Shown piece by piece: positions 7,392-24,558 of a stretch of 64,000 nt of DNA. Numbering within the stretch: the stretch's first letter is position 1; every line of letters starts with the position of its first letter. The notes beneath the pieces are model-generated. The model did not search any database. It saw only the letters and a program-made list of their open reading frames with translations, and was not told the origin of the DNA. Source of the stretch: a virus. The position numbers were made by a program, and so were the translations under genes. The stretch covers positions 64,001-128,000 of IMG/VR virus record IMGVR_UViG_3300048014_000353; one strand, written 5' to 3'.

Positions 7392-7967
7392 ATGTCTCCC
7401 AACGACAATGAAGGCGGGACGCCTTCCCCCGAGATCGCGCCCGTCGTCCCCTCCATCATCGGAGGCGATGGGCCTCCGGGTGGAAGCGCGCCGCCACCCA
7501 CCAAGCGCCGGAGTCCCAACCCCAAGGGGCGAAAGCCGCGCTTCACGATCGCGCAGGTCGAAGAGGCGCTGCGGCACGGCGGCGGACTCTACACGTACGC
7601 CGCGCGCATCCTACACTGCGCGCCGAACACGATCGCGAACTACGTCAACCGGAGCGAGCGTCTTCAGGACGTCCTCTCGGAGTTGAACGTGACGATGCTG
7701 GACCTGGCCGAGGCCAACCTCTTCAAGCACATCGTCGATTCGAACCTGACCGCGCTCATCTTCTATCTGAAGTGCAAGGGGAAGCTGCGGGGCTACGTCG
7801 AGCGTCAAGAGGTCTCCGGCCCTGCCGGCGCGCCGATCGGAGTTCAACTCACCGACGGCGAAGTGGCGAAAATGAGCGACGAGGACATCCTCAGCCGTAT
7901 CGAACAGATCGGGCAGAAGAGTGGGTCCGGAGGAGCAACTTCTTCGTCTAGAGCTCGAAAGGCGTAG
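7392..7967 (+). CDS. Probable terminase small subunit (HTH)
   Basis: HTH-like EEALRHGGGLYTYAARILHC...; AEANL...ALIFYLKCKGK.RGYVERQEV; directly before TerL. Confidence 0.7.
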   Translation: MSPNDNEGGTPSPEIAPVVPSIIGGDGPPGGSAPPPTKRRSPNPKGRKPRFTIAQVEEALRHGGGLYTYAARILHCAPNTIANYVNRSERLQDVLSELNVTMLDLAEANLFKHIVDSNLTALIFYLKCKGKLRGYVERQEVSGPAGAPIGVQLTDGEVAKMSDEDILSRIEQIGQKSGSGGATSSSRARKA

Positions 7968-9378
7968 GCGTCGGCGCACCAATGAGCCACTCGTGGACTA
8001 TGTCCACGACGTCACTCCTCGTTGGGAGCGCCCCGAACACCTCCTTCCGATCTGCTCGCTCTTCGAGCGAATCAAGAACGGCGAGTCGCTCTTCGCGTGC
8101 ATCTCGGTTCCGCCGCAGCACGGCAAGAGCCAGACGATCCTCCACGGCTGCGCGCAGCTCTTTCAGCGCAACCCGACTGACACGATCGCCTACGTCTCCT
8201 ACGGCGCGACCATCGCCGAAGAACAGAGCCGCGATTGCCAGGCGATCCTACGGCGCGCTGGGGTAGCGCTCAACCCGAATGCGCTGTCGGCCGGAAGCTG
8301 GCAGACCGCCGCGGGTGGCCGCTTCTATGCGGTCGGCGTCGGCGGCCCGCTCACAAGCCGGCCGATCACGCGCCTGCTCATCGTCGACGACCCGTACGAA
8401 AACCGGCAGCAGGCCGAGAGCGCCATCACACGAAACCACATCGTCAGCTGGTTCTCGTCGGTCGGCGTCACTCGTATCCACCCGGGCGCCAGCATCATCG
8501 TAGTCCACACGCGGTGGCACGAAGACGATCTCATCGGTCGGCTCACCCGCGGTCTTACCACCGAGGGCATCCCTGGATGGGAGTACGTCAACCTGCCGGC
8601 GATCGCCGACGGAACGGACCCATCACGTCCCGTAGGGACTGCCCTTTGGCATGCACGGCCGCTCGAACTCTTCACGCGCATTCGCGCGAGCGGGTCGCTC
8701 ACGGACCACGACTGGGAGTCGATGTACATGGGGCGCCCGCGCCCCCGTGGAGCCCAGCTCTTTCGCGGCGTCACATACTACAGCGAGCTTCCCAAGACGT
8801 ACCGCGTCGGCAAGGGCGTCGACCTCGCCTACACGGCCAAGAGCCGCGCCGATCACTCGGCCGGCATCGTGGTCCTGCAGGCGGATGAGAAGTTCTACGT
8901 CGCGCACGTCGAGCGTCGCCAGCTGGAACTCGACCAGTTCATCCCGTACCTCGTGGCCCAGTCACGAACGTACAAGGGGGTCTACCGGTTCTCGACCAGC
9001 AGCACCGAGAAGGGCATCGCCCAGCTCTCGAAGCTGCTACCCGCGGACTCCATCCGCATCCATGGCGAGCTCGCCATGAGCGACAAGTTCACCCACTCGC
9101 AGCGCAGTGCGACCGAGTGGAACGCGGGTCGCATCATGGTCCCCGACGAAGCGGCGCAAGCTCAGCTTCGTGCGCTTGGTCTCGACACCGATTGGGTGAA
9201 ACCGTTCGTCGAGGAGATGAACCGCTTCACCGGTGTCTCTGACCGCGAGGACGACCAGTGCGACGCGCTCTTCAACGCGATCGACACCTTCCCAGCCAAG
9301 AAGAGCAAGCCCCCCGTGACCGGTGGCGGCTTCTATCCCGGCATCCAGCACGACGACCTGCCTGCGGGTTACGGCTGA
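7921..9378 (+). CDS. terL: Terminase large subunit
   Basis: Walker A PPQHGKS, Walker B LLIVDDP, TRWHEDDLIG, RNase H-like GVDLA and DDQCDA. Confidence 0.95.
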   Translation: MGPEEQLLRLELERRRRRRTNEPLVDYVHDVTPRWERPEHLLPICSLFERIKNGESLFACISVPPQHGKSQTILHGCAQLFQRNPTDTIAYVSYGATIAEEQSRDCQAILRRAGVALNPNALSAGSWQTAAGGRFYAVGVGGPLTSRPITRLLIVDDPYENRQQAESAITRNHIVSWFSSVGVTRIHPGASIIVVHTRWHEDDLIGRLTRGLTTEGIPGWEYVNLPAIADGTDPSRPVGTALWHARPLELFTRIRASGSLTDHDWESMYMGRPRPRGAQLFRGVTYYSELPKTYRVGKGVDLAYTAKSRADHSAGIVVLQADEKFYVAHVERRQLELDQFIPYLVAQSRTYKGVYRFSTSSTEKGIAQLSKLLPADSIRIHGELAMSDKFTHSQRSATEWNAGRIMVPDEAAQAQLRALGLDTDWVKPFVEEMNRFTGVSDREDDQCDALFNAIDTFPAKKSKPPVTGGGFYPGIQHDDLPAGYG

Positions 9379-9434: not shown

Positions 9435-11753
9435 ATGGCCACCAAGCGAACCAAGCTCCGTCGCACGCCGAAGACCGTGCCGATGGCCTCGCGCGGGACG
9501 CGCCCCGCGTCCTCGGTCATGCCGAAGACCAAGGCGGCGCCCGAGCCGACGTTCCCGATCGCGGTCAATCCGACCCCGGGCGTCCTCGCCCCGCCGCCGC
9601 TCATCGACCGCTACCCCCTCGTCCAGGGGCAGCAGCTCACCTTTACCTATCTCGCGAGCATCTTTCGGCTCGCGACGACGGGCTACCGTCAGCAATTCGT
9701 CGACCTGCTCCGCGAGCTCGTCGAGAACGACGGGCACCTCCTCTCGGTCCTTCAGAAGCGGATCCTGGCAGTCGCAAACGGCCGGATTCGGTTCACGCCT
9801 GCGGTGGATGAGGACCATCCGGAGTCGGAGCTCGCCAAAGAGGTCTGCGAGCTCTGTGAGATTGAGGTCCTCCGGATCCCGAACCTCACGCAGTCGCTGG
9901 CGACGTTGCTCTGGGCGATCTACTACGCGGCCAGCTGCGCAGAGATCATCTGGTCGCGCGATACCGCAGGCTGGCACGTCGACCGGCTCGAGTTCGTGCA
10001 CTCGCGCCGCATTTCGTGGCCGGACTCTCAGTCCTGGGACGCCTACATCTGGGACCAGGGCCAGGTCTACGGGTGGCAGTCCCCGTGGGGCGCGGCGGCC
10101 ACCAATAGCGGTGTTTTCGGTCTTCGGATCGGAAACTGGCCCGGCAAGTTCGTCTTCTACGCGCCCCAGATTCAGGGCGATTACCCCACGCGCGACGGCC
10201 TCGGCCGTCAGGCGGCCATCTTCGCGCTCTTCAAGCGCATCGGTGTTCGTGGCGCCAGCTCGTATCTCGAGCGGTTCGCCAAGGGGTTCATGGACGTCTC
10301 GTACAAGACGTCCCACTCTGACGAACATCCGGACGCCCCCCGCGAAGCGACCGCCGACGACATCGCGATCGCCAACCAGATCGCCGCAGCGCTCGGACCG
10401 GGGAGCGGCAGCTACGCCGCTCACCCGGACTCGATCTCCATCAGCCCGCAGTCGTTCGACGGCGGGTCATCGACCAAGATCACCTGGCAGGAGTGGATCG
10501 GCCTCTGCAACGCGGAGATGAGCAAGCTCGTTCTCGGCGGCACGCTGGGAACGGAAGCGGGCAAGGGCGGCGGCAACCGCGCCCTCGGCGAAGTGATGGA
10601 GCGCGGCGAGGTCGAGCTCCAGCAGTTCGACGCGACGACGCTGGCCGAGACGCTCAAGCGCGACCTGGTCTCGTGGATCGTACGGCTCAATCGGCCCGAC
10701 GCGATTCACCTCGTTCCGAACATCGCGATCCACACGGAGAGCGACCCGGACCCCAAGGCGCTCATCGAGAACGCCGAACGCGTCACGGGGATTGGTGGAG
10801 CGGTCGATCTCGACCAGCTGGCTGAGGACACGGGCGTGCCGCTCGTTCCGAACGAGACGGGCAAGCCGCGTCGCTCGTTCAAGAGCGACATGATCAAGCC
10901 GGAGCTCGTGCAGGACGACCTGCTCAGCCCTGAAGCCAAGAAACAAGCCGCCGCCGACTCCAAGGCCAAGCTGGCCGCCGCCACGCGCCCTCAAGTCGTT
11001 GCGTCCACGCGCTCCAACGGCGTGGACACGGACGACGACCAGGCCGACGACGGCAAGCGCGACCCGAAGAAGGCCCCGGCCGCGAAACCCAACGCCAAGC
11101 CCTCGGGTAAGGTCGCCCCTAAGCCGTCCAAGTCTTCCAAGTCGTCCCCCAAGGACAAGGCCGAGAAGGCGGAGAAGCCTTCGAAGGTCAAGAAGGCGAC
11201 CGACGGTCTCTCCTGCGAAGAGGTGGCGCAGGCCGATGCCTTTCGGAAGTTCCTCTTGTCGTCGAAGCGCGACGACAAGGAGATGGCGTACGCCGTCTAC
11301 GAGGAGCTCCTCGAAGATTATCCGCCCGCGGCGCTCGATTGGATCCTTGCCGCGCACTGGGAGGGTCCGATGGAGATCCCGCTCGACCAGATCGACTTCT
11401 CCCAGAGGAAGACCTGGCGCGCGGACACCGACGACCTCACGCCCTACCGCGACCGCCTCAACAAGGCGCTGGCGGGCAACGGTCCGCGCAAACCCGTCAT
11501 CATCGTCAAGACCCCGGGTAATCCGCTCTACCTCATCGTTGACGGCCACCACCGGACGCTCGCCTGCCTCCTGGAGGGCGTTCCTGCCTGGGCCTACGTC
11601 GCCGAGGTACACGTCGACAACGGCCCGTGGCGCCGGCTGCACGCCGAACAGAAACGCGGCAGCAGCAAGAACGACACGTCCGTCGTCGGCTCCTCCCACG
11701 TCTACAGCCCGGACGGTGATGACGGCCTGCCGGAACACGACGACGAGAGCTGA
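9435..11753 (+). CDS. Portal protein (DUF935/Mu gp29-like) with a Lys-rich linker and C-terminal ParB-like domain
   Basis: ENDGHLLSVLQKR, ERFAKGF, EMSKLVLGGTL...GNRALGEV; C-terminus PVIIVK...IVDGHHRTLA. Confidence 0.85.
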   Translation: MATKRTKLRRTPKTVPMASRGTRPASSVMPKTKAAPEPTFPIAVNPTPGVLAPPPLIDRYPLVQGQQLTFTYLASIFRLATTGYRQQFVDLLRELVENDGHLLSVLQKRILAVANGRIRFTPAVDEDHPESELAKEVCELCEIEVLRIPNLTQSLATLLWAIYYAASCAEIIWSRDTAGWHVDRLEFVHSRRISWPDSQSWDAYIWDQGQVYGWQSPWGAAATNSGVFGLRIGNWPGKFVFYAPQIQGDYPTRDGLGRQAAIFALFKRIGVRGASSYLERFAKGFMDVSYKTSHSDEHPDAPREATADDIAIANQIAAALGPGSGSYAAHPDSISISPQSFDGGSSTKITWQEWIGLCNAEMSKLVLGGTLGTEAGKGGGNRALGEVMERGEVELQQFDATTLAETLKRDLVSWIVRLNRPDAIHLVPNIAIHTESDPDPKALIENAERVTGIGGAVDLDQLAEDTGVPLVPNETGKPRRSFKSDMIKPELVQDDLLSPEAKKQAAADSKAKLAAATRPQVVASTRSNGVDTDDDQADDGKRDPKKAPAAKPNAKPSGKVAPKPSKSSKSSPKDKAEKAEKPSKVKKATDGLSCEEVAQADAFRKFLLSSKRDDKEMAYAVYEELLEDYPPAALDWILAAHWEGPMEIPLDQIDFSQRKTWRADTDDLTPYRDRLNKALAGNGPRKPVIIVKTPGNPLYLIVDGHHRTLACLLEGVPAWAYVAEVHVDNGPWRRLHAEQKRGSSKNDTSVVGSSHVYSPDGDDGLPEHDDES

Positions 11754-11838: not shown

Positions 11839-12270
11839 ATGCAAGTCAACAACGTCAACGACGTCGGCATCACGCTCGCCACCGCCTGCCCGCTCTTCTC
11901 CGCGCAGATCGCAGCCGGCACCACAGCGGTCGCCGAACAGTCGGTCGGCTCGGTCGGCCCCGGCCCGCAGCAGGTCGCGATCGGCGCGATCATCCTCCAG
12001 CCCACCGGCGCGCTCGCCATCTCGGGCTCGGCGTACATCACGGTCAACGTCTACAAGCGCACGGCCGGCGGGTCGCAGACGCTCATCGGCACCATGACGA
12101 CCTTCACCGGTGGCACCGCGCTCGTCGCGTTCACGCCTGTCATGCTGACGCTCCAGTCGGGCGCGGGCTCGTACCTGTCGCCCGGCGACACGGTCACGAT
12201 CGCCGTCACCAACACCGGCGCCGCGTCGCAGCCGCAGTTCTCGATCAGCGGCTTCACGAAGGCCAACTGA
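11839..12270 (+). CDS. Beta-rich hypothetical virion protein
   Basis: GAGGA RBS, Thr/Ala/Gly-rich, located in the head module. Confidence 0.7.
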   Translation: MQVNNVNDVGITLATACPLFSAQIAAGTTAVAEQSVGSVGPGPQQVAIGAIILQPTGALAISGSAYITVNVYKRTAGGSQTLIGTMTTFTGGTALVAFTPVMLTLQSGAGSYLSPGDTVTIAVTNTGAASQPQFSISGFTKAN

Positions 12271-12278
12271 CCCGGCAC

Positions 12279-14843
12279 GTGCCCGCCGTGACGACGAAAC
12301 CCATCCTGCTCGACCTCGCGCCGAGCGACGTGCACACGCCGTCGTCCATGGCGACGGTGAGCGCCGCCAAGCCGGGTCTCCTGGCCAAAGCCGCGCTCGC
12401 CGTCGTCCACGACGACGGCGGTCGCATCCTCACCGTCGCCCGCCCCGAGCCGCCTCACGAGATGGCCCTTCCGGGCGGGATGATCGAGGACGGCGAGACC
12501 GAGGAAACCGCCGCCGCCCGCGAGCTGACCGAGGAAACCGGCATCAAGGCCGATGTCCTCGAGCACATCCTCGACACCCGGAGCCCCGTCGACGGCCGCG
12601 TCGTCTCGATCTTCCGCGTCACGCGGTGGTCGGGCGAGCCGTCCGCCGCCGAGGGCAACCCGGTCCAGTGGATGAAGCCGATCGACCTTGTGGCCCAGGC
12701 CACCCACTTCCGCCCGACCTTGAGGGAACTCATGCCGCACATCCTCCCCGAGGGCGAGATGGCCGAGCGCGCGAACCTCATCGACGCCGCCAAGCGCAAC
12801 GCCCTGGCCGAGTCGAAGTTCGCGCTCCCCGCCCAGCGCAAGTACCCGATCGACACGGCCGCCCGCACGCGCAACGCCGCCGCGCGTCTTGAGCAGCAAA
12901 GGAAGGCCGGCAAGATCTCCGACGCCGACTACAAGACCGCGCGCGTTCGTATCGCCGCCGCCGCGAAGTCGTTCGGCATCGACAGCGAATTCAACGCGCG
13001 CGCCGGCTCGCCGCCGGCCGCCGCCGCCAAGCGACCCGCAGGACGCGGGCGCGGAACCATTCACGTCCGGGCCGACCTGGCTCCCGGGGGAGCTCTCCAC
13101 GTGCGCCATATGACGACGAGCGAGGACGGCGCGCAGGCCTTCGTCCAACTGAGTGACGGAAGCATCGGCCTCCGCGACATCCGCGCGATCAAGCAGGGCG
13201 ACGAGGTCGATCCGGCCACCGCGGGCGTGAAGCTCATCGGCAAAGCCACCTGGAGCGACGGGACGCCCAAGACCCTCGTGTGGATTCAGGTGGCCGAGTG
13301 CGGCGCCTGGCGCGGTCACCCGGCCGGTCCGTTCGAGATGACGCCCAAGACGTTCGCCGAGATCAAGGCCAACTTCGACCAGCGCGGTCTCCCGGTCCCC
13401 TTCGACTACGAGCACGCGAGCGAGCAGGACGCGACGAGTGGCAGCATCCCGATCTCGGGCGCGCCCGCGCCGGGCTGGGTCCACAAGCTCGACAACCGCG
13501 GCATCGGCGGGCTCTGGGGCCTGGTCGAGTGGCTCGACGCCGCGCGCAACGCGATCAAGGAAGGGTCCTACGCCTTCCTGTCGCCTGCCATCCGCTTCGG
13601 GTGCAAGCACCCGGTGACGGGGCAGCCCATCGGCGCGCGGCTCACGTCGGTGGCGCTCACCAACCAGCCGTTCCTGACGTCGCTCGACGACCTTCGCGCG
13701 GCGAAGGACGACTCGGCGCGCGAAGCGCTGCTCGCGAAGTCGCCGCTCCTGTTGAAGGGCTTCGGTGAGAACGTCATCGCCGCCGGCGGCAGCGCGCTCC
13801 TCGACCGTATGGTCCATTCCCCGTCGGGGATCCTCCCCAAGATCAAGGCGGCGCTGAAGCTGCACCCGCTCGCGACGCTGGACGACGTGTCGGGGCATCT
13901 CGGCAAGCTCCGCGAGGCCTGCATGTCGGCCGACGCGGGCGGGTCGTACTGCGGCGAGCCGCTCAGCGACTACTTGGGGCCGCTCACCGACCTCGCGAAC
14001 CCCGGCCTTGGGGCGACCTACACCAACGTCCTCGACGCGCTCGACGCGTTCGTGGACGCCGAGATCGAAAAGCACGTCTTCCAAGGCGTGCCCATGCCGG
14101 ACCCGCCTTCTGCGGCGATGGACGACGACTTTGATGACGGCGGAGGAGACCTCTCCGACCGCCCGGAGAAAACCATGTCCGACAAGACCGCCACGACCCT
14201 CAAGGACGCTCAGGACGAACTCGCCAAGGTCACCGCCGTCAAGGAGTCGGTCGAGGCCGAGCGTACGCAGCTCCTCGCCGACAAGCAGACCCTCGCGACG
14301 GAGAAGACCAACCTCCTGGCGGACAAGGTCAAGCTCGAAGGCGAGAACTCGACGCTCACCCTGCAGCTCCGCGACGCGACGCAGAAGGCGACCGAGGCGG
14401 GCGAAGCCCTTTCGACTGCGAACGCGTCGATCGCCGCCGCTTCCACTGCGCTCGTCCTGAAGGACAAGGAGACGCTCGCCGAGGGTGCCGCGCGCATCGT
14501 CGCCGACAACGTGCGCCTGGCGAAGGAAGTCGCCGACATCAAGGAGGCGGGGCTCGTCGCTGCCGTAGACGACGCCTTCGCGGCGTACAGCGAGAGCAAG
14601 AAGCTCCGCGCCGAGGACAAGCCCATGATGCTCCGCTCGGCCCGCGCCGACCGCGAAGCGTTCGATGCGCTCTACCCGCCGGTCAGCGCCGCGCACCGTC
14701 ACCTCCTCACGACCGTCGTGACCCCCGAGAAGCGCCCGGAAGTGGAGCAGGCGGAGGCAAGTGACCCGATCAAGGTCATGAGCGAAACCGGCTGCAATTA
14801 CGCCGAGGCGCTCGCGCGTATCAACCGCAAGAAGCCCGAATGA
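12279..14843 (+). CDS. Nudix hydrolase / DUF6582-like / Mu I-type prohead protease / scaffold fusion
   Basis: Nudix box GGMIEDGETEETAAARELTEETGI; FALPAQRKYPID segment; WIQV...PVPFDYEHA...APAPGW...WLDAARNAIKEGSYAFLSP...VALTNQPFL; C-terminal coiled coil. Confidence 0.85.
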   Translation: MPAVTTKPILLDLAPSDVHTPSSMATVSAAKPGLLAKAALAVVHDDGGRILTVARPEPPHEMALPGGMIEDGETEETAAARELTEETGIKADVLEHILDTRSPVDGRVVSIFRVTRWSGEPSAAEGNPVQWMKPIDLVAQATHFRPTLRELMPHILPEGEMAERANLIDAAKRNALAESKFALPAQRKYPIDTAARTRNAAARLEQQRKAGKISDADYKTARVRIAAAAKSFGIDSEFNARAGSPPAAAAKRPAGRGRGTIHVRADLAPGGALHVRHMTTSEDGAQAFVQLSDGSIGLRDIRAIKQGDEVDPATAGVKLIGKATWSDGTPKTLVWIQVAECGAWRGHPAGPFEMTPKTFAEIKANFDQRGLPVPFDYEHASEQDATSGSIPISGAPAPGWVHKLDNRGIGGLWGLVEWLDAARNAIKEGSYAFLSPAIRFGCKHPVTGQPIGARLTSVALTNQPFLTSLDDLRAAKDDSAREALLAKSPLLLKGFGENVIAAGGSALLDRMVHSPSGILPKIKAALKLHPLATLDDVSGHLGKLREACMSADAGGSYCGEPLSDYLGPLTDLANPGLGATYTNVLDALDAFVDAEIEKHVFQGVPMPDPPSAAMDDDFDDGGGDLSDRPEKTMSDKTATTLKDAQDELAKVTAVKESVEAERTQLLADKQTLATEKTNLLADKVKLEGENSTLTLQLRDATQKATEAGEALSTANASIAAASTALVLKDKETLAEGAARIVADNVRLAKEVADIKEAGLVAAVDDAFAAYSESKKLRAEDKPMMLRSARADREAFDALYPPVSAAHRHLLTTVVTPEKRPEVEQAEASDPIKVMSETGCNYAEALARINRKKPE

Positions 14844-15901
14844 TCCTCGTCCGCGACATCCAAGGGAACCCCCTCTTCTATCTGGAGGGGGATGTCGCGC
14901 GCGACAGTAGCGGCAAGCCCGTGGCCGTCGCGGTCGACAAGGACGGTGAGTCCAGACGGCTCACGAAGCACGCCGCGCGCGTGATGACCGCCACGTCGCC
15001 GGAGAGCGTCCTCATGGACCTAGCCCCGGGCGACGTGGTGACGCCGTCAACGCAGGACGTCTACGCTATGCCCTTCGGGGACTTCGTCGCCGACCAGGTT
15101 AGCCAGGTTCGCTACGTCAAGAACGATCGCGGCGTCTACTACGCCGAGAACGTCGCCGATGCGACGAGCCTCGTCATGGCAGTGGCGGCTGCCGACGGGA
15201 CGCCGAGCGAGATCAACCCGGGCTTTGGCTCCGGATCGTTCAAGACGACAGGCTACGCGCTTGCGACGCGGCTCTCGCGTTCGCTCGTCAACAACGCCGA
15301 CTTCGACCTCAAGGCGATCGCGCTCCACCGGCTGATCATCGCGCTCCGGCTCGGGCGCGAATACCGGCTCGCGCAGCTCCTCACGACCGCCGCGAACTGG
15401 GCGACCAAGAACCAGATCACTGCGACCGCGAAGTGGAATGGCGGCATCACCGCGAACCCGCTCGCGGACCTTTTCGCCGCGCTCGCCGCTTCCGCGCTCC
15501 CCGCCAGCATGGTGGTGATGCCGGAGCTCGCCGCGCAATACTTTTTCCAGAACGCCAACTCCACCGCCATGCGCGACTACGTGCAGTCGGGCGGTGAGAT
15601 GCCCAAGGTCGTCTTCGCCCGCGCGAAGTTCACGAGCGCGGGCAACGCAGCGTACATCTGGGCGCCGACGCTCCCCGCGAACGTCGCGATGGTGCGCTCC
15701 ACCGACCACTTGCCGACGACGACCACCTACCGGTGGCTCGGCGACGACAAGTGCAAGGACGGCGAGCGCGCCGAAGGGATGCTCGTGCGGCAATTCTGGA
15801 GCAACACCGATGATTCGTACTGGATCATCGCAGCTCACAACGATGCCGAGCTGATGATCGCACCCACGGTGGGAGCCATCATCACCGGCGCGATGGCGTA
15901 A
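14840..15901 (+). CDS. Major capsid protein paralogue 1 (phage capsid E-like)
   Basis: EINPG, YAL, NAD, RLGREYRLAQLLTTAANW, KWNGGITANPL; homologous to 16543..17841. Confidence 0.75.
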   Translation: MILVRDIQGNPLFYLEGDVARDSSGKPVAVAVDKDGESRRLTKHAARVMTATSPESVLMDLAPGDVVTPSTQDVYAMPFGDFVADQVSQVRYVKNDRGVYYAENVADATSLVMAVAAADGTPSEINPGFGSGSFKTTGYALATRLSRSLVNNADFDLKAIALHRLIIALRLGREYRLAQLLTTAANWATKNQITATAKWNGGITANPLADLFAALAASALPASMVVMPELAAQYFFQNANSTAMRDYVQSGGEMPKVVFARAKFTSAGNAAYIWAPTLPANVAMVRSTDHLPTTTTYRWLGDDKCKDGERAEGMLVRQFWSNTDDSYWIIAAHNDAELMIAPTVGAIITGAMA

Positions 15902-16066
15902 CCAACCGATAGGGCCGCGCCCGCCACGAATGCGTGGCGCGGGTTTCCACAACCACAGGGCGGCCATGCGTGGCCTCCGGACACGTCCTCCCATGCGCGC
16001 ACTAGGGCGCGCGGAGCGGGCGCGTGCGGGGGACGGGCGCCTTTTTGTCTCGTCAAGGAGTCCTCC

Positions 16067-16492
16067 ATGTCCGCGACCGATTTCATTTGGGGTGGGCTGC
16101 CGATCTTCGGCGCCGACTGGACCGTCAAGAACACGAGCGGCACGGCCATGACCTCGGGTCAGACCGTCAAGCTCGACGCCTCCAACCCGCTCTCGGCGGC
16201 GCAGGCCGCGCCCGGCGTCGTCCTCACGGCCGCCGTGACGGACTACCCGCTCGGGGTCCTCATCGAAAACATCCCCGTCGCGTCGTACGGCCGCTGCCGC
16301 GTCGAGGGGGGAGCCGTGGCCATCGCCGCCGGCGCGATCTCGGCCGGCGCCATCGTCGGCCCGTCGGGCGCGACCTCGGGTGACGTCACGACCTACACGG
16401 CCGGCGACCCGTCGCTCGGCCAGGCCCTGTCGGCCGCGCTCAACGCCGCCGACCCCATCGCCGTCCGCATCGCGATCTCCAAGAACGCCTGA
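16067..16492 (+). CDS. Capsid decoration/cement protein (DUF2190-like)
   Basis: AAGGAG RBS; Gly/Ala-rich small protein between capsid genes, YPLGV...GAISAGAIV...GQAL..A. Confidence 0.7.
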   Translation: MSATDFIWGGLPIFGADWTVKNTSGTAMTSGQTVKLDASNPLSAAQAAPGVVLTAAVTDYPLGVLIENIPVASYGRCRVEGGAVAIAAGAISAGAIVGPSGATSGDVTTYTAGDPSLGQALSAALNAADPIAVRIAISKNA

Positions 16493-16542
16493 GCGCGGGA
16501 CGCGGTCCTTTTCCACCTTTCACACGTTCGAGGACATTCCGA

Positions 16543-17841
16543 ATGTCGACGCAAAAGCTCGTCTCGCTCAAGGACGTCAAGTCCAACAAGATCCAGTATC
16601 TCGACCTCGCGAGCGGCGCGCTCTACGCCGATCCGGAGGGTCGCCGCACGATCCGTCAGCTCACGCCCACCGAGGTCGTCCTCGGCGACCGCGGGGAGCC
16701 GGTCCGTCACCCGAACGGGGATCTGATCCACTGCTCGGAGCTCGCGAACATCGCGGTCGAGCACTACGCGCGCGGCATGGCGATCTCGATGGGTCGTTCC
16801 GTGCCTTTCGAAGTCACGCGGATGGACGGCTCCACGTCCAAGATGATGTCGTTGCGTGACGGACGCGTCGTCACCATGGACCTCGGTATCTCCGACGTAC
16901 ACACGGCCGCGACCCTGCCGAACTACGTCGGCGGGTACCACATCGCTGACGGGGTCGCGGACATCGCGTCGCCCAGCATCCTCGTGCCGAAGGCCACGGA
17001 CGTCTACTACACGTGGAACGCGACGTCGGACTTCAACCGGAAGATCCCGAACATCACGTCCCCCGGCGGGGCCGTGCCCGAAGTGAACCCCGGCATCGCG
17101 AACGCGACCTACAACACGGTCAACTACGCGCTCGGCGGGTTCCTGCCGACCGAAGTGCAGTCCAACGCGGACGCGCCCCTTCGCCCCTTCGCGAAGATGA
17201 CGCAGATCATCGTGGACGGCATCCGGCTCGAGCGCGAGTACCGCGTGGCGTCGCTGCTCACGACGAGCGGCAACTGGAACAGCAACCTGGTCCAGACCAT
17301 CGCGGCAGGCGCGCAGTGGGACGGCGGCGCGGCAGCCGACCCGCTCTACGTGCTGCACAAGGCGATCGAGCAGTCGTACATGGAGGACAACCTCCGGATC
17401 ATCTGCTCGACGCAGCTGCTCCACGACTTCCTGCGGTCGCCGGCGATCCAGAAGTACTTCCAGTTCAAGGACAGCGTCGCAGGCGTTCCGTCGGCGCAGG
17501 CCGTCGCCGACACCCTGGGCCTCCCGCCCATCTACGCGGCGCAGATGAAGTACATCACGGGCGGCGCGCTCAACTACGTGTGGGGTTCGTCGGTCCTCCT
17601 CGTGCGCGTCCCCAAGGAGACGCCCCCCACGAGCCAGATGGAAGTCGGCACGTCGTACACCATGCGGTGGAACGGCGGCGACGCCCCGGACGGCACGGTC
17701 TCGGGCGGGCTCCTCGTCCGCACGTACTACGACCAGAAGCGCGGTGGGCGCGGCGGCACTCAGGTCGTCGTCACGCACAACGACAGCGAGCAGATGACCT
17801 CCGGCCTCGTTGGCGGACTCCTGCTCAACGTTCACCAGTGA
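16543..17841 (+). CDS. Major capsid protein paralogue 2 (probably the main capsid protein)
   Basis: YVGGY...VADIASP, EVNPG, RLEREYRVASLLTTSGNW, QWDGGAAADPL; very high GC3 and followed by strong hairpins. Confidence 0.85.
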   Translation: MSTQKLVSLKDVKSNKIQYLDLASGALYADPEGRRTIRQLTPTEVVLGDRGEPVRHPNGDLIHCSELANIAVEHYARGMAISMGRSVPFEVTRMDGSTSKMMSLRDGRVVTMDLGISDVHTAATLPNYVGGYHIADGVADIASPSILVPKATDVYYTWNATSDFNRKIPNITSPGGAVPEVNPGIANATYNTVNYALGGFLPTEVQSNADAPLRPFAKMTQIIVDGIRLEREYRVASLLTTSGNWNSNLVQTIAAGAQWDGGAAADPLYVLHKAIEQSYMEDNLRIICSTQLLHDFLRSPAIQKYFQFKDSVAGVPSAQAVADTLGLPPIYAAQMKYITGGALNYVWGSSVLLVRVPKETPPTSQMEVGTSYTMRWNGGDAPDGTVSGGLLVRTYYDQKRGGRGGTQVVVTHNDSEQMTSGLVGGLLLNVHQ

Positions 17842-22150: not shown

Positions 22151-22861
22151 ATGCCGAAGCTTCCCACGCTCGCCGTGTATGCCAACCCGTGGCACGGCCC
22201 GCTCGATCACAACCACCGTGCGTGCTCGGCCGTCCCCTGGGACCCGAGCGACAACCCGCAGCGCGTGCACGTGGGCGCCGCTCACCGCATGGTCGGCTCC
22301 GGCGAGCAGGCAGAGATCTACTTCGAGTACTCCCAGTACGAGGGGACCGACGGCGTCGCGCTGACGCTCCGCAAGGGTCACGAGGGCATCACCCTCCCGG
22401 CGACCCGCTACTTCCTCGAAGCCATCCGCAACGGCTCGCTCTGGCCGGCGGACGAGAAGACCCACAAGCTCGCCTTCGGCAACCTCGCGCACTACCGCCC
22501 CGTCGCGGACCGCGCGAAGGAAGCGCCGGGCCACGCGCTCGCCGGTCATAAGTACCGCACGGGCGAGGACGCCGAGCCCTCGCCGCGCCCCGCCGTGGGT
22601 GAAGGGGGCCTCGGTCCGCAGCACGCGCACCGCCTCCTCTCCAGCGTGAACACCGTGCACGCCGCGGCGCAGGAGGAGCTCCGCCTCGCCCTCGCCGAGA
22701 GCGCCAAGAAGCAGACCGACGAGGTCGAGAAGACGCGCCTCGTGCTCGCCGACGAGCGCGCGAAGCACGACGCGGCCGATGCCGCGCCGGCGCCGACGCG
22801 CATCGCGCTCACGGCCGACGCCCACCCCGATGACACCGCGCACGAAGGAGGTCACCAGTGA
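22151..22861 (+). CDS. Pre-sheath protein (Mu gp38/DUF2635-like segment)
   Basis: TRYFLEAIRNGSLWPAD resembles YW.RR..DGD; coupled to the sheath gene. Confidence 0.55.
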   Translation: MPKLPTLAVYANPWHGPLDHNHRACSAVPWDPSDNPQRVHVGAAHRMVGSGEQAEIYFEYSQYEGTDGVALTLRKGHEGITLPATRYFLEAIRNGSLWPADEKTHKLAFGNLAHYRPVADRAKEAPGHALAGHKYRTGEDAEPSPRPAVGEGGLGPQHAHRLLSSVNTVHAAAQEELRLALAESAKKQTDEVEKTRLVLADERAKHDAADAAPAPTRIALTADAHPDDTAHEGGHQ

Positions 22862-24558
22862 GCCCCCAATTCGTCATCGCTGGCTTCCCCAGCACCGACT
22901 TCACCCCTGGCGCGTACGGCAAGGTCTCCTACGGGGGCGGCGCCACCAGCGCGGCCAGCATCCCGCTGAAGCTCCTGGTCGTCGGCATGAAGGCCTCGAA
23001 CACGAGCGGCACCTCCGTGCAGGACTCGGAAGTCGACCAGGTCTTCACCGTCTCGCAGGCCGACACCCTCTACGGCATGGGCGGGCAGATCACCCGCGCC
23101 TGCCAGGCCGCGCTCCAGACCCAGGGCGTCAGCGTCTACGGCGCCCCGTGCGCCGTCCCCGCGAGCCCGACCCAGGCCTCGATCCAGTTCTCCATCGTTG
23201 CCGCGCAGACCATCGCCGGCACGCTGACCGTGCGCCTTGGCGGCCTGTCGGTGCAGTGCGGCGTCGGCTCATCGGACACGGCGACCACCATCGCGACGAA
23301 CCTCGCGGCCGCCATCAACTCGGTCCTCCGAATGCCGTTCACGGCCACGTCGTCGGCCGGCATCGTCACCGCGACCTGCATCACGCCCGGCGCCGACGGC
23401 AACGCCTACTTGGGCGCGGTGGACGTCACGCAGTGCGCGGGCGTCACCTGCTCGATGACCGGCACGGTCCGCGCGAACACGACCGCGTACCTCCTCAACG
23501 CGCTCGTCTCGCCGGCCACGGCCAACGGGTACTACTACCAGGTCACGACCGCAGGCACGACCGGCGCAACCGTCCCCACGTTCCCGACGACGATCGGCAC
23601 GACGGTCAGCGACGGGTCTGCCGTCCTCACGTGCGTCGGCAAGGTCCTCACCGGAGGCATCGTGACGGCGTTCGGCGGCGCGGGCGTCGAGAGCGTCGCG
23701 AACGTCCTGGCCGTCATCCAGAACCAGCAGTTCGACCGCATCGCGCTCTGCCAGAACGACGCGACGAACCTGGGGCTCTGGCACACGCAGGTCGATGCGC
23801 AGGCCGGCCCGCTCTCCATCATCCTGCAGCACGTCGTGTGCGCGACCAACGGCACGCTGGCGACGGCGACCTCCCTCGCGCAGACCACGCTCAACGACCA
23901 GCGCTTTCAGGTCATGTGGTACCTGAACGGTGAGACGCACTACTCCGAGATGGCGGCGACCTTTGCCGCGATCCGGACGTCGTACGAGCAGACCGATCCG
24001 GACCACGCGTACGACAACATGGTCCTGCCGGGCGTCGCCCCGCAGTCCCAGCGTCCCGACTGGCCCATCCACGCGACGCTCGTGTCGGCGCTCAACAACG
24101 GCGTCACCCCCATCGGCACGACCCCGTCGAGCCAGGCGTACGTCGTCCGCAGCATCACGAGCCACTCGCTCAACGGCACGACGCCCGACTACTCGTGCCT
24201 CGACACGTCCGAGTCCGTGGTCGCCGACTACTGCCTGGTCTCGCTGCTCCTCTACTGGACCAACGTGTTCCTGCCGAGCAACCCGCGCTGCGGCCCGGAC
24301 CTTCCGGCCAACCAGCCGGCGTACCCGTCGGGGGTCGGCTACCCGACGCTCTGGAGCAAGGTCGCGACGGCCGTGCTCATCGACTTCGAGAACGGCAGCG
24401 TGGGTGGCGCGACCATCCCGCCCATTCTCTACAACGTCGAGGCGAACCCGGTCGTGTCCTCCTGGGACCCGGTGGCTCAGCGCATCATGAGCGCGGTCAC
24501 CGTGCATCCGATGCCGAATCAGCATCAAATCGGAGTATCGGTGAGCCAAAGCCCTTGA
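22858..24558 (+). CDS. Tail sheath protein (Mu gpL-like) with an inserted CBM-like module
   Basis: PGAYGKV, LLVVG, ADTLYG.G, LNNGVTPI, VVRSITS...LDT; internal NGYYYQVTTAGTTGATVPTFPT insert. Confidence 0.9.
   Translation: MSPQFVIAGFPSTDFTPGAYGKVSYGGGATSAASIPLKLLVVGMKASNTSGTSVQDSEVDQVFTVSQADTLYGMGGQITRACQAALQTQGVSVYGAPCAVPASPTQASIQFSIVAAQTIAGTLTVRLGGLSVQCGVGSSDTATTIATNLAAAINSVLRMPFTATSSAGIVTATCITPGADGNAYLGAVDVTQCAGVTCSMTGTVRANTTAYLLNALVSPATANGYYYQVTTAGTTGATVPTFPTTIGTTVSDGSAVLTCVGKVLTGGIVTAFGGAGVESVANVLAVIQNQQFDRIALCQNDATNLGLWHTQVDAQAGPLSIILQHVVCATNGTLATATSLAQTTLNDQRFQVMWYLNGETHYSEMAATFAAIRTSYEQTDPDHAYDNMVLPGVAPQSQRPDWPIHATLVSALNNGVTPIGTTPSSQAYVVRSITSHSLNGTTPDYSCLDTSESVVADYCLVSLLLYWTNVFLPSNPRCGPDLPANQPAYPSGVGYPTLWSKVATAVLIDFENGSVGGATIPPILYNVEANPVVSSWDPVAQRIMSAVTVHPMPNQHQIGVSVSQSP

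What the first reader, a model, noticed from the sequence alone, without database searches (positions are those of the whole stretch)
14840..17841. Two intact, divergent major capsid protein genes
Seen: 14840..15901 and 16543..17841 share colinear blocks (EINPG/EVNPG, YAL, NAD, RLGREYRLAQLLTTAANW/RLEREYRVASLLTTSGNW, KWNGGITANPL/QWDGGAAADPL, AHNDAE/THNDSE). Both are uninterrupted with strong codon bias and flank a decoration gene. Most Mu-like phages have one MCP. Inference: either a vertex/hexon division of labour as in T4 gp23/gp24, or two capsid sizes or types from one genome.
Basis: partly seen in the sequence, partly recalled or inferred. Interest (0 to 1): 0.7.

Follow-up and report, generated by a model that had tools for sequence, protein, structure and literature searches.

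The report
Phage head with two capsid-shell genes
A large uncultured peat/moss phage, and a small group of its relatives, carries a second, diverged copy of its capsid-shell gene; this copy probably builds the five-fold corners of the head, as in phage T4, but it arose separately from T4's and nobody has tested its role.

Summary
Genes 14840-15901 (A, 353 aa) and 16543-17841 (B, 432 aa) are intact, colinear paralogues (28% identity, E 5e-36; profile comparison E 8e-67). They flank a cement gene (PF09956). AlphaFold models of both match HK97-fold capsid proteins.

B is the family's ordinary major capsid protein. About 60 related phage loci, including a complete 98-kb genome, have only a B-type gene. 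A is an accessory second shell gene in a minority of phages, always placed between the protease-scaffold gene and the cement gene.

A evolves faster than B (15 of 15 phage pairs) and has lower GC3 (7 of 7 loci). It has no Shine-Dalgarno sequence and its start overlaps the scaffold gene's stop. It lacks about 13 residues of the axial domain. It keeps the propeptide and the shared DLxxxDV motif, a likely protease site.

The best reading is a specialised minor shell protein, most likely the penton, as with T4 gp24 and mycobacteriophage Jabs MCPp. This role is inferred, not shown.

Origin is unresolved. The best tree puts A in an old sister lineage. A recent in-place duplication is disfavoured but not rejected (AU p 0.057).

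This scan has reported comparable two-capsid-gene cases on other DNA. The case is rare but not new in kind.

The parts
12279..14843 (+). Fusion protein of 854 aa: NUDIX, DUF6582, Mu gpI-type prohead protease and a C-terminal coiled-coil region read as scaffold. Its stop overlaps the start of A (ATGA).
   Evidence: Pfam PF00293 (8.5e-19), PF20223 (5.5e-11) and PF10123 (6.5e-22). phrog_328 head maturation protease (3.7e-28). Sequence of the overlap. The scaffold reading rests on weak coiled-coil-type Pfam hits at residues 643-757 and on position.
12312..12335 (+). Copy 1 of the shared motif DLxxxDVH (LDLAPSDVHT), near the N-terminus of the protease-scaffold protein.
   Evidence: Genome-wide six-frame regex search. 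In relatives a copy lies just upstream of the protease domain.
14840..15901 (+). Capsid paralogue A (353 aa): HK97 fold. It is the accessory copy and the proposed minor or penton shell protein.
   Evidence: (phrog_1005, 9e-13).
15017..15040 (+). Copy 2 of the motif (MDLAPGDVVT), in the low-confidence linker between A's N-terminal domain and its HK97 body. The His is replaced in nearly all A-type sequences examined.
   Evidence: pLDDT is below 50 at residues 53-62. Conservation across A-type sequences (one deep A-type, P0164, keeps His).
15902..16066 (+). Spacer of 165 nt with GC-rich hairpins, followed by an AAGGAG Shine-Dalgarno for the cement gene. It separates A from the cement and B genes.
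   Evidence: A spacer of 80-189 nt with predicted GC-rich stems is found at this position in the loci examined. Its overall fold is no more stable than shuffled sequence (z -0.09).
16067..16492 (+). Cement (decoration) protein, 141 aa.
   Evidence: PF09956 Phage_cement_2, E 9.1e-6, above the curated cutoff.
16543..17841 (+). Capsid paralogue B (432 aa): HK97 fold. It is the ancestral major capsid protein of this phage family.
   Evidence: (phrog_1005, 1.2e-29, full length). It is the only capsid gene in about 60 related loci.
16879..16902 (+). Copy 3 of the motif (MDLGISDVHT), in the disordered linker before B's N-arm.
   Evidence: pLDDT is below 50 at residues 101-125. The motif lies about 320 residues from the C-terminus in nearly all close B-type relatives and is missing from the most distant ones.

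Best explanation
Both genes encode real HK97-fold shell proteins that enter the prohead as precursors. Each carries a removable N-terminal domain, joined to the fold by a linker with a shared DLxxxDV motif that is probably the site cut by the Mu-type prohead protease.

B is the ancestral, abundant major capsid protein. In most relatives a B-type protein is the only capsid protein, so there it must build both hexamers and pentamers.

A is an accessory second shell protein found in a minority of these phages. It most likely takes over a minor, geometrically special position, the eleven pentameric vertices, in the way T4 gp24 works with gp23 and Jabs MCPp works with MCPh.

Shown here: homology, fold, conserved synteny, which copy is ancestral, and the relative rates and expression cues. 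Inferred: cleavage at the motif, presence of A in particles, and the penton position.
For: - Homology and fold. Both family profiles match 3BJQ, a phage-related protein from a Bordetella genome that is also the top Foldseek hit for both models.
- Conserved order protease-scaffold, A, cement, B in the window plus loci L001-L009 (about 7 distinct phages, 40-54% identity for A). A Polyangiaceae MAG shows the same order. Equal contig lengths suggest nine more pairs.
- B is ancestral. About 60 distinct B-type loci have protease, usually cement, then one capsid gene. Whole-record searches of a complete 98-kb genome with terminal repeats and of three records 83-88% complete find one capsid gene each.
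- A is more diverged than B between the same phages in 15 of 15 pairs (mean 45.5% against 54.9%).
- GC3 is lower in A than in B in 7 of 7 loci.
- A has no Shine-Dalgarno and its ATG overlaps the scaffold stop. Cement has AAGGAG and B has GAGGA.
- A keeps the P-domain and C-terminal blocks (42-50% consensus identity). It is least like B in the axial-domain core (30%, with 13 columns deleted). The experimentally defined penton protein of phage Jabs likewise has a reduced axial domain (bioRxiv 10.64898/2026.07.24.740622).
- The motif occurs, in its full form, only three times in the genome, all in head proteins. In A and B it lies in low-confidence linkers (the third copy was not modelled). It is conserved across most of the family, though absent from the most distant B-type relatives.
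- Relatives with similar genome sizes manage without A. This fits a dispensable specialisation; from my own knowledge, T4 gp24 can be bypassed by mutations in gp23.
Against: - There are no virion, stoichiometry or multimer data, so the penton assignment is by analogy.
- The expression cues (GC3, Shine-Dalgarno) are weak proxies.
- The P-domain is the best conserved part of most HK97 families, so the domain pattern discriminates poorly.
- dN/dS is saturated and about equal for both genes (0.4-0.8).
- Metatranscriptome contigs covered parts of B, cement and protease but not A. The tool states that absence of cover cannot be used as evidence.
- A pairs with B-types from at least three B subclades, so it must work with rather different partners. 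That is not an obvious property of a tightly fitted vertex protein.
Confidence: 0.5

Rival explanations
1. A and B co-assemble throughout the shell. They would form mixed capsomers, or A would form a particular class of hexamers such as those next to the vertices or the portal. This would resemble two-component encapsulin shells, or PRD1-like viruses with two capsid proteins.
For: Both keep a full-length HK97 fold, the propeptide and the motif. Two-component HK97-fold shells exist; PDB 9bje, a two-component family 2B encapsulin, appears among the fold hits for B. A's conserved P-domain blocks would fit any lattice position.
Against: A has lower codon bias and no ribosome-binding site, which argues for much lower abundance than B. 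Relatives build heads of similar genome size with B alone. The solved dual-capsid-protein cases I found for tailed phages (T4, Jabs) are both hexon/penton splits.
Confidence: 0.2
2. A is not a shell subunit of the infectious particle. It would be a capsid-like accessory protein: an assembly nucleator or chaperone, an internal protein, or a decoy that occupies host defence sensors which recognise capsid proteins.
For: A has a patchy, accessory distribution. It changes faster than B. A and B histories are discordant (L001 against L009: A 47.5%, B 74.9%). A-types pair with B-types of different subclades. These are typical traits of exchangeable accessory or counter-defence genes.
Against: A keeps every element of the fold, the propeptide, the likely processing motif and the lattice-contact blocks. 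It always sits inside the head-assembly operon, translationally coupled to the scaffold. A decoy would not need any of these.
Confidence: 0.1
3. The two genes give alternative capsids, of two sizes or types, from one genome.
For: None beyond the existence of two genes.
Against: The two genes are co-oriented in the same late head gene block. There is one portal, one protease-scaffold and one cement gene, and no invertible or regulatory switch was seen. Phages with the pair and phages without it have similar genome sizes.
Confidence: 0.04
4. A is a redundant or decaying duplicate with no function of its own.
For: A evolves faster than B.
Against: A is intact in 24 clusters at 41-60% identity, with 34 invariant columns. 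About 17 full-length clusters at the 50% level score above 350 bits against the A profile. A-specific features are conserved, including the replaced His in the motif and the C-terminal GA(L/I)ITGA.
Confidence: 0.02

Closest known systems
Phage T4 gp23 (hexamers) and gp24 (pentameric vertices)
   Same: Two diverged HK97-fold paralogues sit in one head operon behind a protease and scaffold. Both are made as precursors cut by the prohead protease. The minor one is smaller. From my own knowledge, gp24 is dispensable in principle, through bypass mutations in gp23.
   Different: The origin is independent: there is no sequence-family match to gp23/gp24 and the head module is Mu-type. A lies upstream of the major gene and the cement gene, not downstream. 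A is present in only some members of the phage group. A's position in the shell is not known.
Mycobacteriophage Jabs MCPh (ORF72, hexons) and MCPp (ORF73, pentons), T=9 (bioRxiv 10.64898/2026.07.24.740622)
   Same: Two HK97-fold proteins of low identity (18% there, 28% here) are encoded by neighbouring genes. The penton protein is shorter, with a reduced axial domain.
   Different: Jabs is a siphophage of actinobacteria with no cement protein and a disulfide-linked shell. Here there is a cement protein, a Mu-type protease and propeptides on both proteins. The Jabs roles were solved by cryo-EM; these are predicted.
3BJQ (BB3626), phage-related protein from Bordetella bronchiseptica RB50, and lambda gpE-type capsid proteins (PF03864)
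   Same: It is the closest solved structure by sequence profile (B 4.7e-10, A 0.0042) and by fold (Foldseek E 3e-15 and 4e-13).
   Different: 3BJQ has no N-terminal propeptide domain: its sequence aligns from about the motif onward. Pfam PF03864 itself is not matched at E <= 0.1.
Other two-capsid-gene cases noted by this scan on other DNA (e1-811948, e1-5801174, e1-2277604)
   Same: Adjacent, intact, old HK97-fold paralogues behind a protease-scaffold, read there as hexon/penton pairs.
   Different: They are in different phage or virus lineages. I did not check them here.

Membership tests
HK97-fold major capsid proteins | HK97 fold: N-arm, E-loop hairpin, spine helix and P-domain, A-domain | tested here: met
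   AlphaFold models have pLDDT 84 (A) and 81 (B). For both, all listed Foldseek hits in PDB are capsid or encapsulin shell proteins (apart from 3BJQ, whose title says only 'phage-related protein'), with E down to 4e-13 and 3e-15. The named BFVD hits for A are nearly all capsid proteins.
HK97-fold major capsid proteins | Encoded in the head module next to portal, protease and scaffold | tested here: met
   Gene order is TerL, Portal_Mu, protease-scaffold, A, cement, B, connectors, sheath.
HK97-fold major capsid proteins | Forms the shell of the particle | not testable with these tools
   There is no isolate. No close relative exists among 50,697 phage records; the best hit is Brevibacillus phage Jenst at 22%.
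PHROG 1005 (major head protein) | Significant match to the family profile | tested here: met
   B 1.2e-29 over the full length. A 8.9e-13 over a partial stretch, residues 81-217.
T4 gp24-type vertex protein | Paralogue of the phage's own major capsid protein in the same head operon | tested here: met
T4 gp24-type vertex protein | Sequence membership in the T4 gp23/gp24 family | tested here: not met
   Neither protein matches any Pfam capsid family at E <= 0.1. The only PHROG matched is 1005. The closest structure is 3BJQ, of lambda gpE type. The resemblance to gp24 is one of function, not of descent.
T4 gp24-type vertex protein | Forms pentamers at the eleven non-portal vertices | not testable with these tools
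   No multimer prediction or particle data were available. Only indirect cues exist.
Mu gpT major head subunit family (what a Mu-like phage would be expected to carry) | Match to the Mu-type major head family profile | tested here: not met
   The Pfam scan at E <= 0.1 gives no capsid family for A or B. Portal and protease are Mu-type.
Lambda gpE-like capsid proteins (PF03864) | Match to the family profile, or to solved members | tested here: inconclusive
   There is no Pfam hit. However, the profiles match 3BJQ, and the nearest Atlas structure clusters carry PF03864 in 17-70% of their members.

The most novel reading that the evidence does not exclude
A is a horizontally exchangeable capsid cassette. 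On this reading it moves among related large soil phages and slots in beside different resident capsid proteins. It would either re-equip their vertices or act as a capsid-like decoy against host sensors that recognise capsid proteins. That would make a shell protein behave like an accessory, defence-related gene.
Probability: 0.1. Interest if true: 0.75.

Novelty: new variant of a known kind. Interest (0 to 1): 0.45.

Why it matters
Nearly all tailed phages build pentamers and hexamers from one protein. A separate penton protein had been shown only for T4-type phages and, in 2026, for mycobacteriophage Jabs.

This lineage seems to have added a second shell protein independently, and relatives with and without it are available for comparison. 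That makes it a natural experiment on what a dedicated vertex protein is for: assembly fidelity, curvature, stability or evasion of host defences.

The shared DLxxxDV motif also offers a testable cleavage code for Mu-type prohead proteases.

Tried and rejected
I could not read the contigs of protein-database hits. Pairings outside the fetched loci therefore rest only on equal contig lengths.
- dN/dS by Nei-Gojobori is uninformative. Synonymous sites are saturated and constrained by GC3 near 0.9, and both genes give 0.4-0.8.
- Metatranscriptome runs X16-X19 gave only short contigs at low depth.
- I looked for the genomic context of the intermediate capsid proteins (P0168, P0170, P0172-P0176, P0178, P0161). 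Four single-protein scans and one degenerate DNA pattern scan of viral contigs found nothing.
- 401 Myxococcota genomes gave only the one known MAG plus three distant hits.
- The consensus promoter/terminator scan found nothing in the A-cement spacer. The spacer's overall fold is no better than shuffled sequence. No Rfam family matches.
- The idea that A goes with a bigger genome is rejected. A two-gene phage is 98 kb at 95% complete, and single-gene relatives are 94-101 kb.
- A strictly recent in-place duplication looked acceptable without the intermediate sequences (AU p 0.56). With them it costs 22 log-likelihood units (p 0.057).
Full report
**Setting.** The window is bases 64001-128000 of a 138,550-bp linear IMG/VR virus record that CheckV rates 82% complete. 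DNA runs that hold it come from moss and peat metagenomes. G+C is 63-72% across 2-kb windows and coding is almost all on the + strand.

The region of the finding lies in a myovirus head-tail module. In order, it holds:
- large terminase, 7921-9378;
- Mu-type portal, 9435-11753 (PF06074, 8.8e-53);
- a small Gly/Thr/Ala-rich ORF, 11839-12270;
- an 854-aa fusion of NUDIX, DUF6582, Mu gpI-type protease (PF10123, 6.5e-22) and a coiled-coil C-terminal part read as scaffold, 12279-14843;
- gene A, 14840-15901;
- a cement gene, 16067-16492 (PF09956);
- gene B, 16543-17841;
- connector genes and a tail sheath.

So the head module is Mu-type, but the phage is not a Mu-like transposable phage in size or content.

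- BLASTP gives 28% identity over 383 columns, E 5e-36, colinear from the N-terminal domains to the C-termini.
- Profiles built from 24 A-type and 48 B-type homologues align with probability 100%, E 8e-67.
- Both match PHROG 1005 'major head protein': B 1.2e-29 over its full length, A 8.9e-13 over part.
- No third homologue exists in the record.

**Both adopt the HK97 fold.** AlphaFold2 on the family alignments gave pLDDT 84 (A) and 81 (B), pTM 0.83 and 0.80. Both models show an E-loop hairpin, a long spine helix, and the P- and A-domain strands in the usual order.
- The best Foldseek hit in the PDB for both is 3BJQ, a phage-related protein from Bordetella bronchiseptica RB50 (E 4e-13 for A, 3e-15 for B). 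All other listed hits are capsid and encapsulin shells.
- The named hits for A in the viral structure library are nearly all capsid proteins.
- Sequence profiles also reach 3BJQ (B 4.7e-10, A 0.0042).

**Which copy is the ordinary one.**
- Scans of IMG/VR with the two alignments returned about 100 loci. A tblastn survey of them shows protease-scaffold, A, cement, B only in the window's near relatives. These are L001-L009 and re-fetched copies of the same contigs, about 7 distinct phages. A Polyangiaceae MAG contig (L021) has the same order.
- About 60 other distinct loci have a protease, usually a detectable cement gene, and a single B-type gene.
- Whole-record searches confirm a single capsid gene in a complete 98.4-kb genome with terminal repeats, and in three records of 94-101 kb that are 83-88% complete. 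A two-gene relative is 98 kb at 95% complete.
- B is therefore the family's all-purpose major capsid protein. A is an add-on, and it does not track genome size.

**Cues to A's abundance and role.**
- A's ATG overlaps the stop of the scaffold gene (ATGA) and has no Shine-Dalgarno sequence. The cement gene has AAGGAG and B has GAGGA.
- A hairpin-rich spacer of 80-189 nt separates A from cement in the two-gene loci examined. Hairpins were folded in those loci only. A gap of comparable length follows the scaffold gene in single-gene relatives, as judged from tblastn coordinates. So A was added to the upstream portal-protease-scaffold unit.
- GC3 is lower in A than in B in 7 of 7 loci.
- Between the same pairs of phages, A is always more diverged than B (15 of 15 pairs, mean 45.5% against 54.9%).
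- At family level, A and B agree best in the linker motif, the spine-helix/P-domain and the C-terminal strands (42-60% consensus identity). They agree least in the axial-domain core (30%), where A lacks 13 columns.
- The experimentally defined penton protein of phage Jabs is likewise shorter, with a reduced axial domain.
- All of this fits a low-copy shell protein that keeps the lattice contacts but has a changed capsomer core. None of it proves that.

**A shared processing motif.**
- A six-frame search of the whole record finds the full form of the motif, [LM]DL[AG]xxDV[HV]T, only three times. The sites are the N-terminus of the protease-scaffold protein (12312), A (15017) and B (16879).
- In A and B the motif lies in the only long low-confidence linkers of the models, between a small beta-plus-helix N-terminal domain and the N-arm.
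- In B-type proteins, MDLGxxDVH sits about 320 residues from the C-terminus in nearly all close relatives and is missing from the most distant ones. A second copy lies just upstream of the protease domain in most loci. A-type proteins keep DLxxxDV, and nearly all replace the His.
- 3BJQ aligns only from about this point onward, so what precedes the motif is an extension that 3BJQ lacks.
- I read the motif as the site cut by the Mu-type protease. This is an inference.

**Origin.**
- With only the loci at hand, A sits on a long branch, and a tree that holds A and its partner B's together is as good as the free tree (AU p 0.56).
- An exhaustive profile search of 1.84 billion representative proteins changed the picture. 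It found about 17 full-length A-type clusters scoring above 350 bits. It also found an intermediate group (P0168, P0170, P0172-P0176, P0178) that is about 29-36% identical to both A and B.
- With these added, the tree splits with full support into two groups. One is an A-superclade (A plus 14 added sequences: the intermediates and deeper A-types). The other is a B-superclade (all B's and all single genes).
- Forcing the A-superclade next to the partner B's then costs 22 log-likelihood units, AU p 0.057. A is therefore probably an old sister lineage.
- Two readings remain. A may have been acquired from a related phage lineage, which needs few events. Or it may come from an ancient duplication that was lost many times. 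A recent duplication with fast divergence is disfavoured but not formally rejected.
- I could not obtain the genomic context of the intermediates.

**Mobility.**
- On a tree of B-type proteins, 13 of 15 partners of A-type genes form one clade, sister to the single-gene locus L025.
- The other two fall elsewhere. P0115 is the partner, by equal contig length, of P0005, which is the closest relative of the window's A. P0116 is the partner of the deep A-type P0164.
- L001 and L009 share 75% identity in B but only 47.5% in A.
- So A and B have partly separate histories, and the two-gene state changed at least three times.
- Caveat: those two pairings rest only on equal contig lengths.

**Comparison with what is known.**
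- T4 gp23/gp24 is the classic hexamer/vertex split.
- A 2026 preprint reports the first icosahedral case, mycobacteriophage Jabs. There MCPh (594 aa) forms 80 hexons and MCPp (257 aa, 18% identity) forms 11 pentons.
- The large phage Goslar uses one protein for both pentons and hexons. So does the Mu-like phage JBD30.
- This scan has already reported similar pairs on other DNA.
- The present pair is an independent, Mu-type-head instance with an unusual gene order and a patchy, partly mobile distribution. It is a new variant of a known kind and is functionally untested.

**Verdict.**
- Rival readings: mixed capsomers about 20%, a non-shell role about 10%, two capsid types about 4%, a decaying duplicate about 2%.

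Noticed in passing
window 12312-12335, 15017-15040, 16879-16902; also loci L005-L007, L028-L060: The motif [LM]DL[AG]xxDV[HV]T occurs only in three head proteins of this genome. Across most of the phage family it recurs both upstream of the Mu-type protease domain and before the capsid N-arm. It is a likely cleavage or docking code for Mu gpI-type proteases.
   Followed up: partly
window 12279-14843: The prohead protease-scaffold protein carries an N-terminal NUDIX hydrolase domain and a DUF6582 domain in one 854-aa reading frame. A head-assembly protein fused to a nucleotide hydrolase is unusual. In some relatives the NUDIX match and the protease match are reported as two separate tblastn segments (L002, L008).
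   Followed up: no
window 12285-12580 (RNA run X16): One 506-nt metatranscriptome contig of very high depth (about 5100) matches 296 nt at the 5' end of the protease-scaffold gene with one mismatch. It is preceded by 210 nt of unrelated sequence. This could be a chimera, a highly expressed relative or an artefact.
   Followed up: no
window 15902-16066 and the same position in L001, L005-L009: A spacer of 80-189 nt with GC-rich hairpins always separates gene A from the cement gene. Its position is conserved but its sequence is not. It could be a transcript end, a processing site or a late promoter region.
   Followed up: partly
proteins P0101 and P0106 (relatives): In some relatives the cement domain (PF09956) and the B-type capsid protein are fused into one protein of about 545 aa.
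   Followed up: no
loci L001 and L009: These two phages share 75% identity in capsid B but only 47.5% in capsid A. This points to recombination inside the head module between the two capsid genes.
   Followed up: partly
window 11839-12270: A 143-aa Gly/Thr/Ala-rich ORF with very high GC3 (0.95) lies between the portal and protease genes. It has no family match in Pfam, PHROGs or NCBIfam. It may be another surface or decoration protein.
   Followed up: no
window 22858-24558: The tail sheath protein has an inserted segment (residues 201-258) that matches a 'head decoration' PHROG (phrog_20658, 3.6e-8).
   Followed up: no
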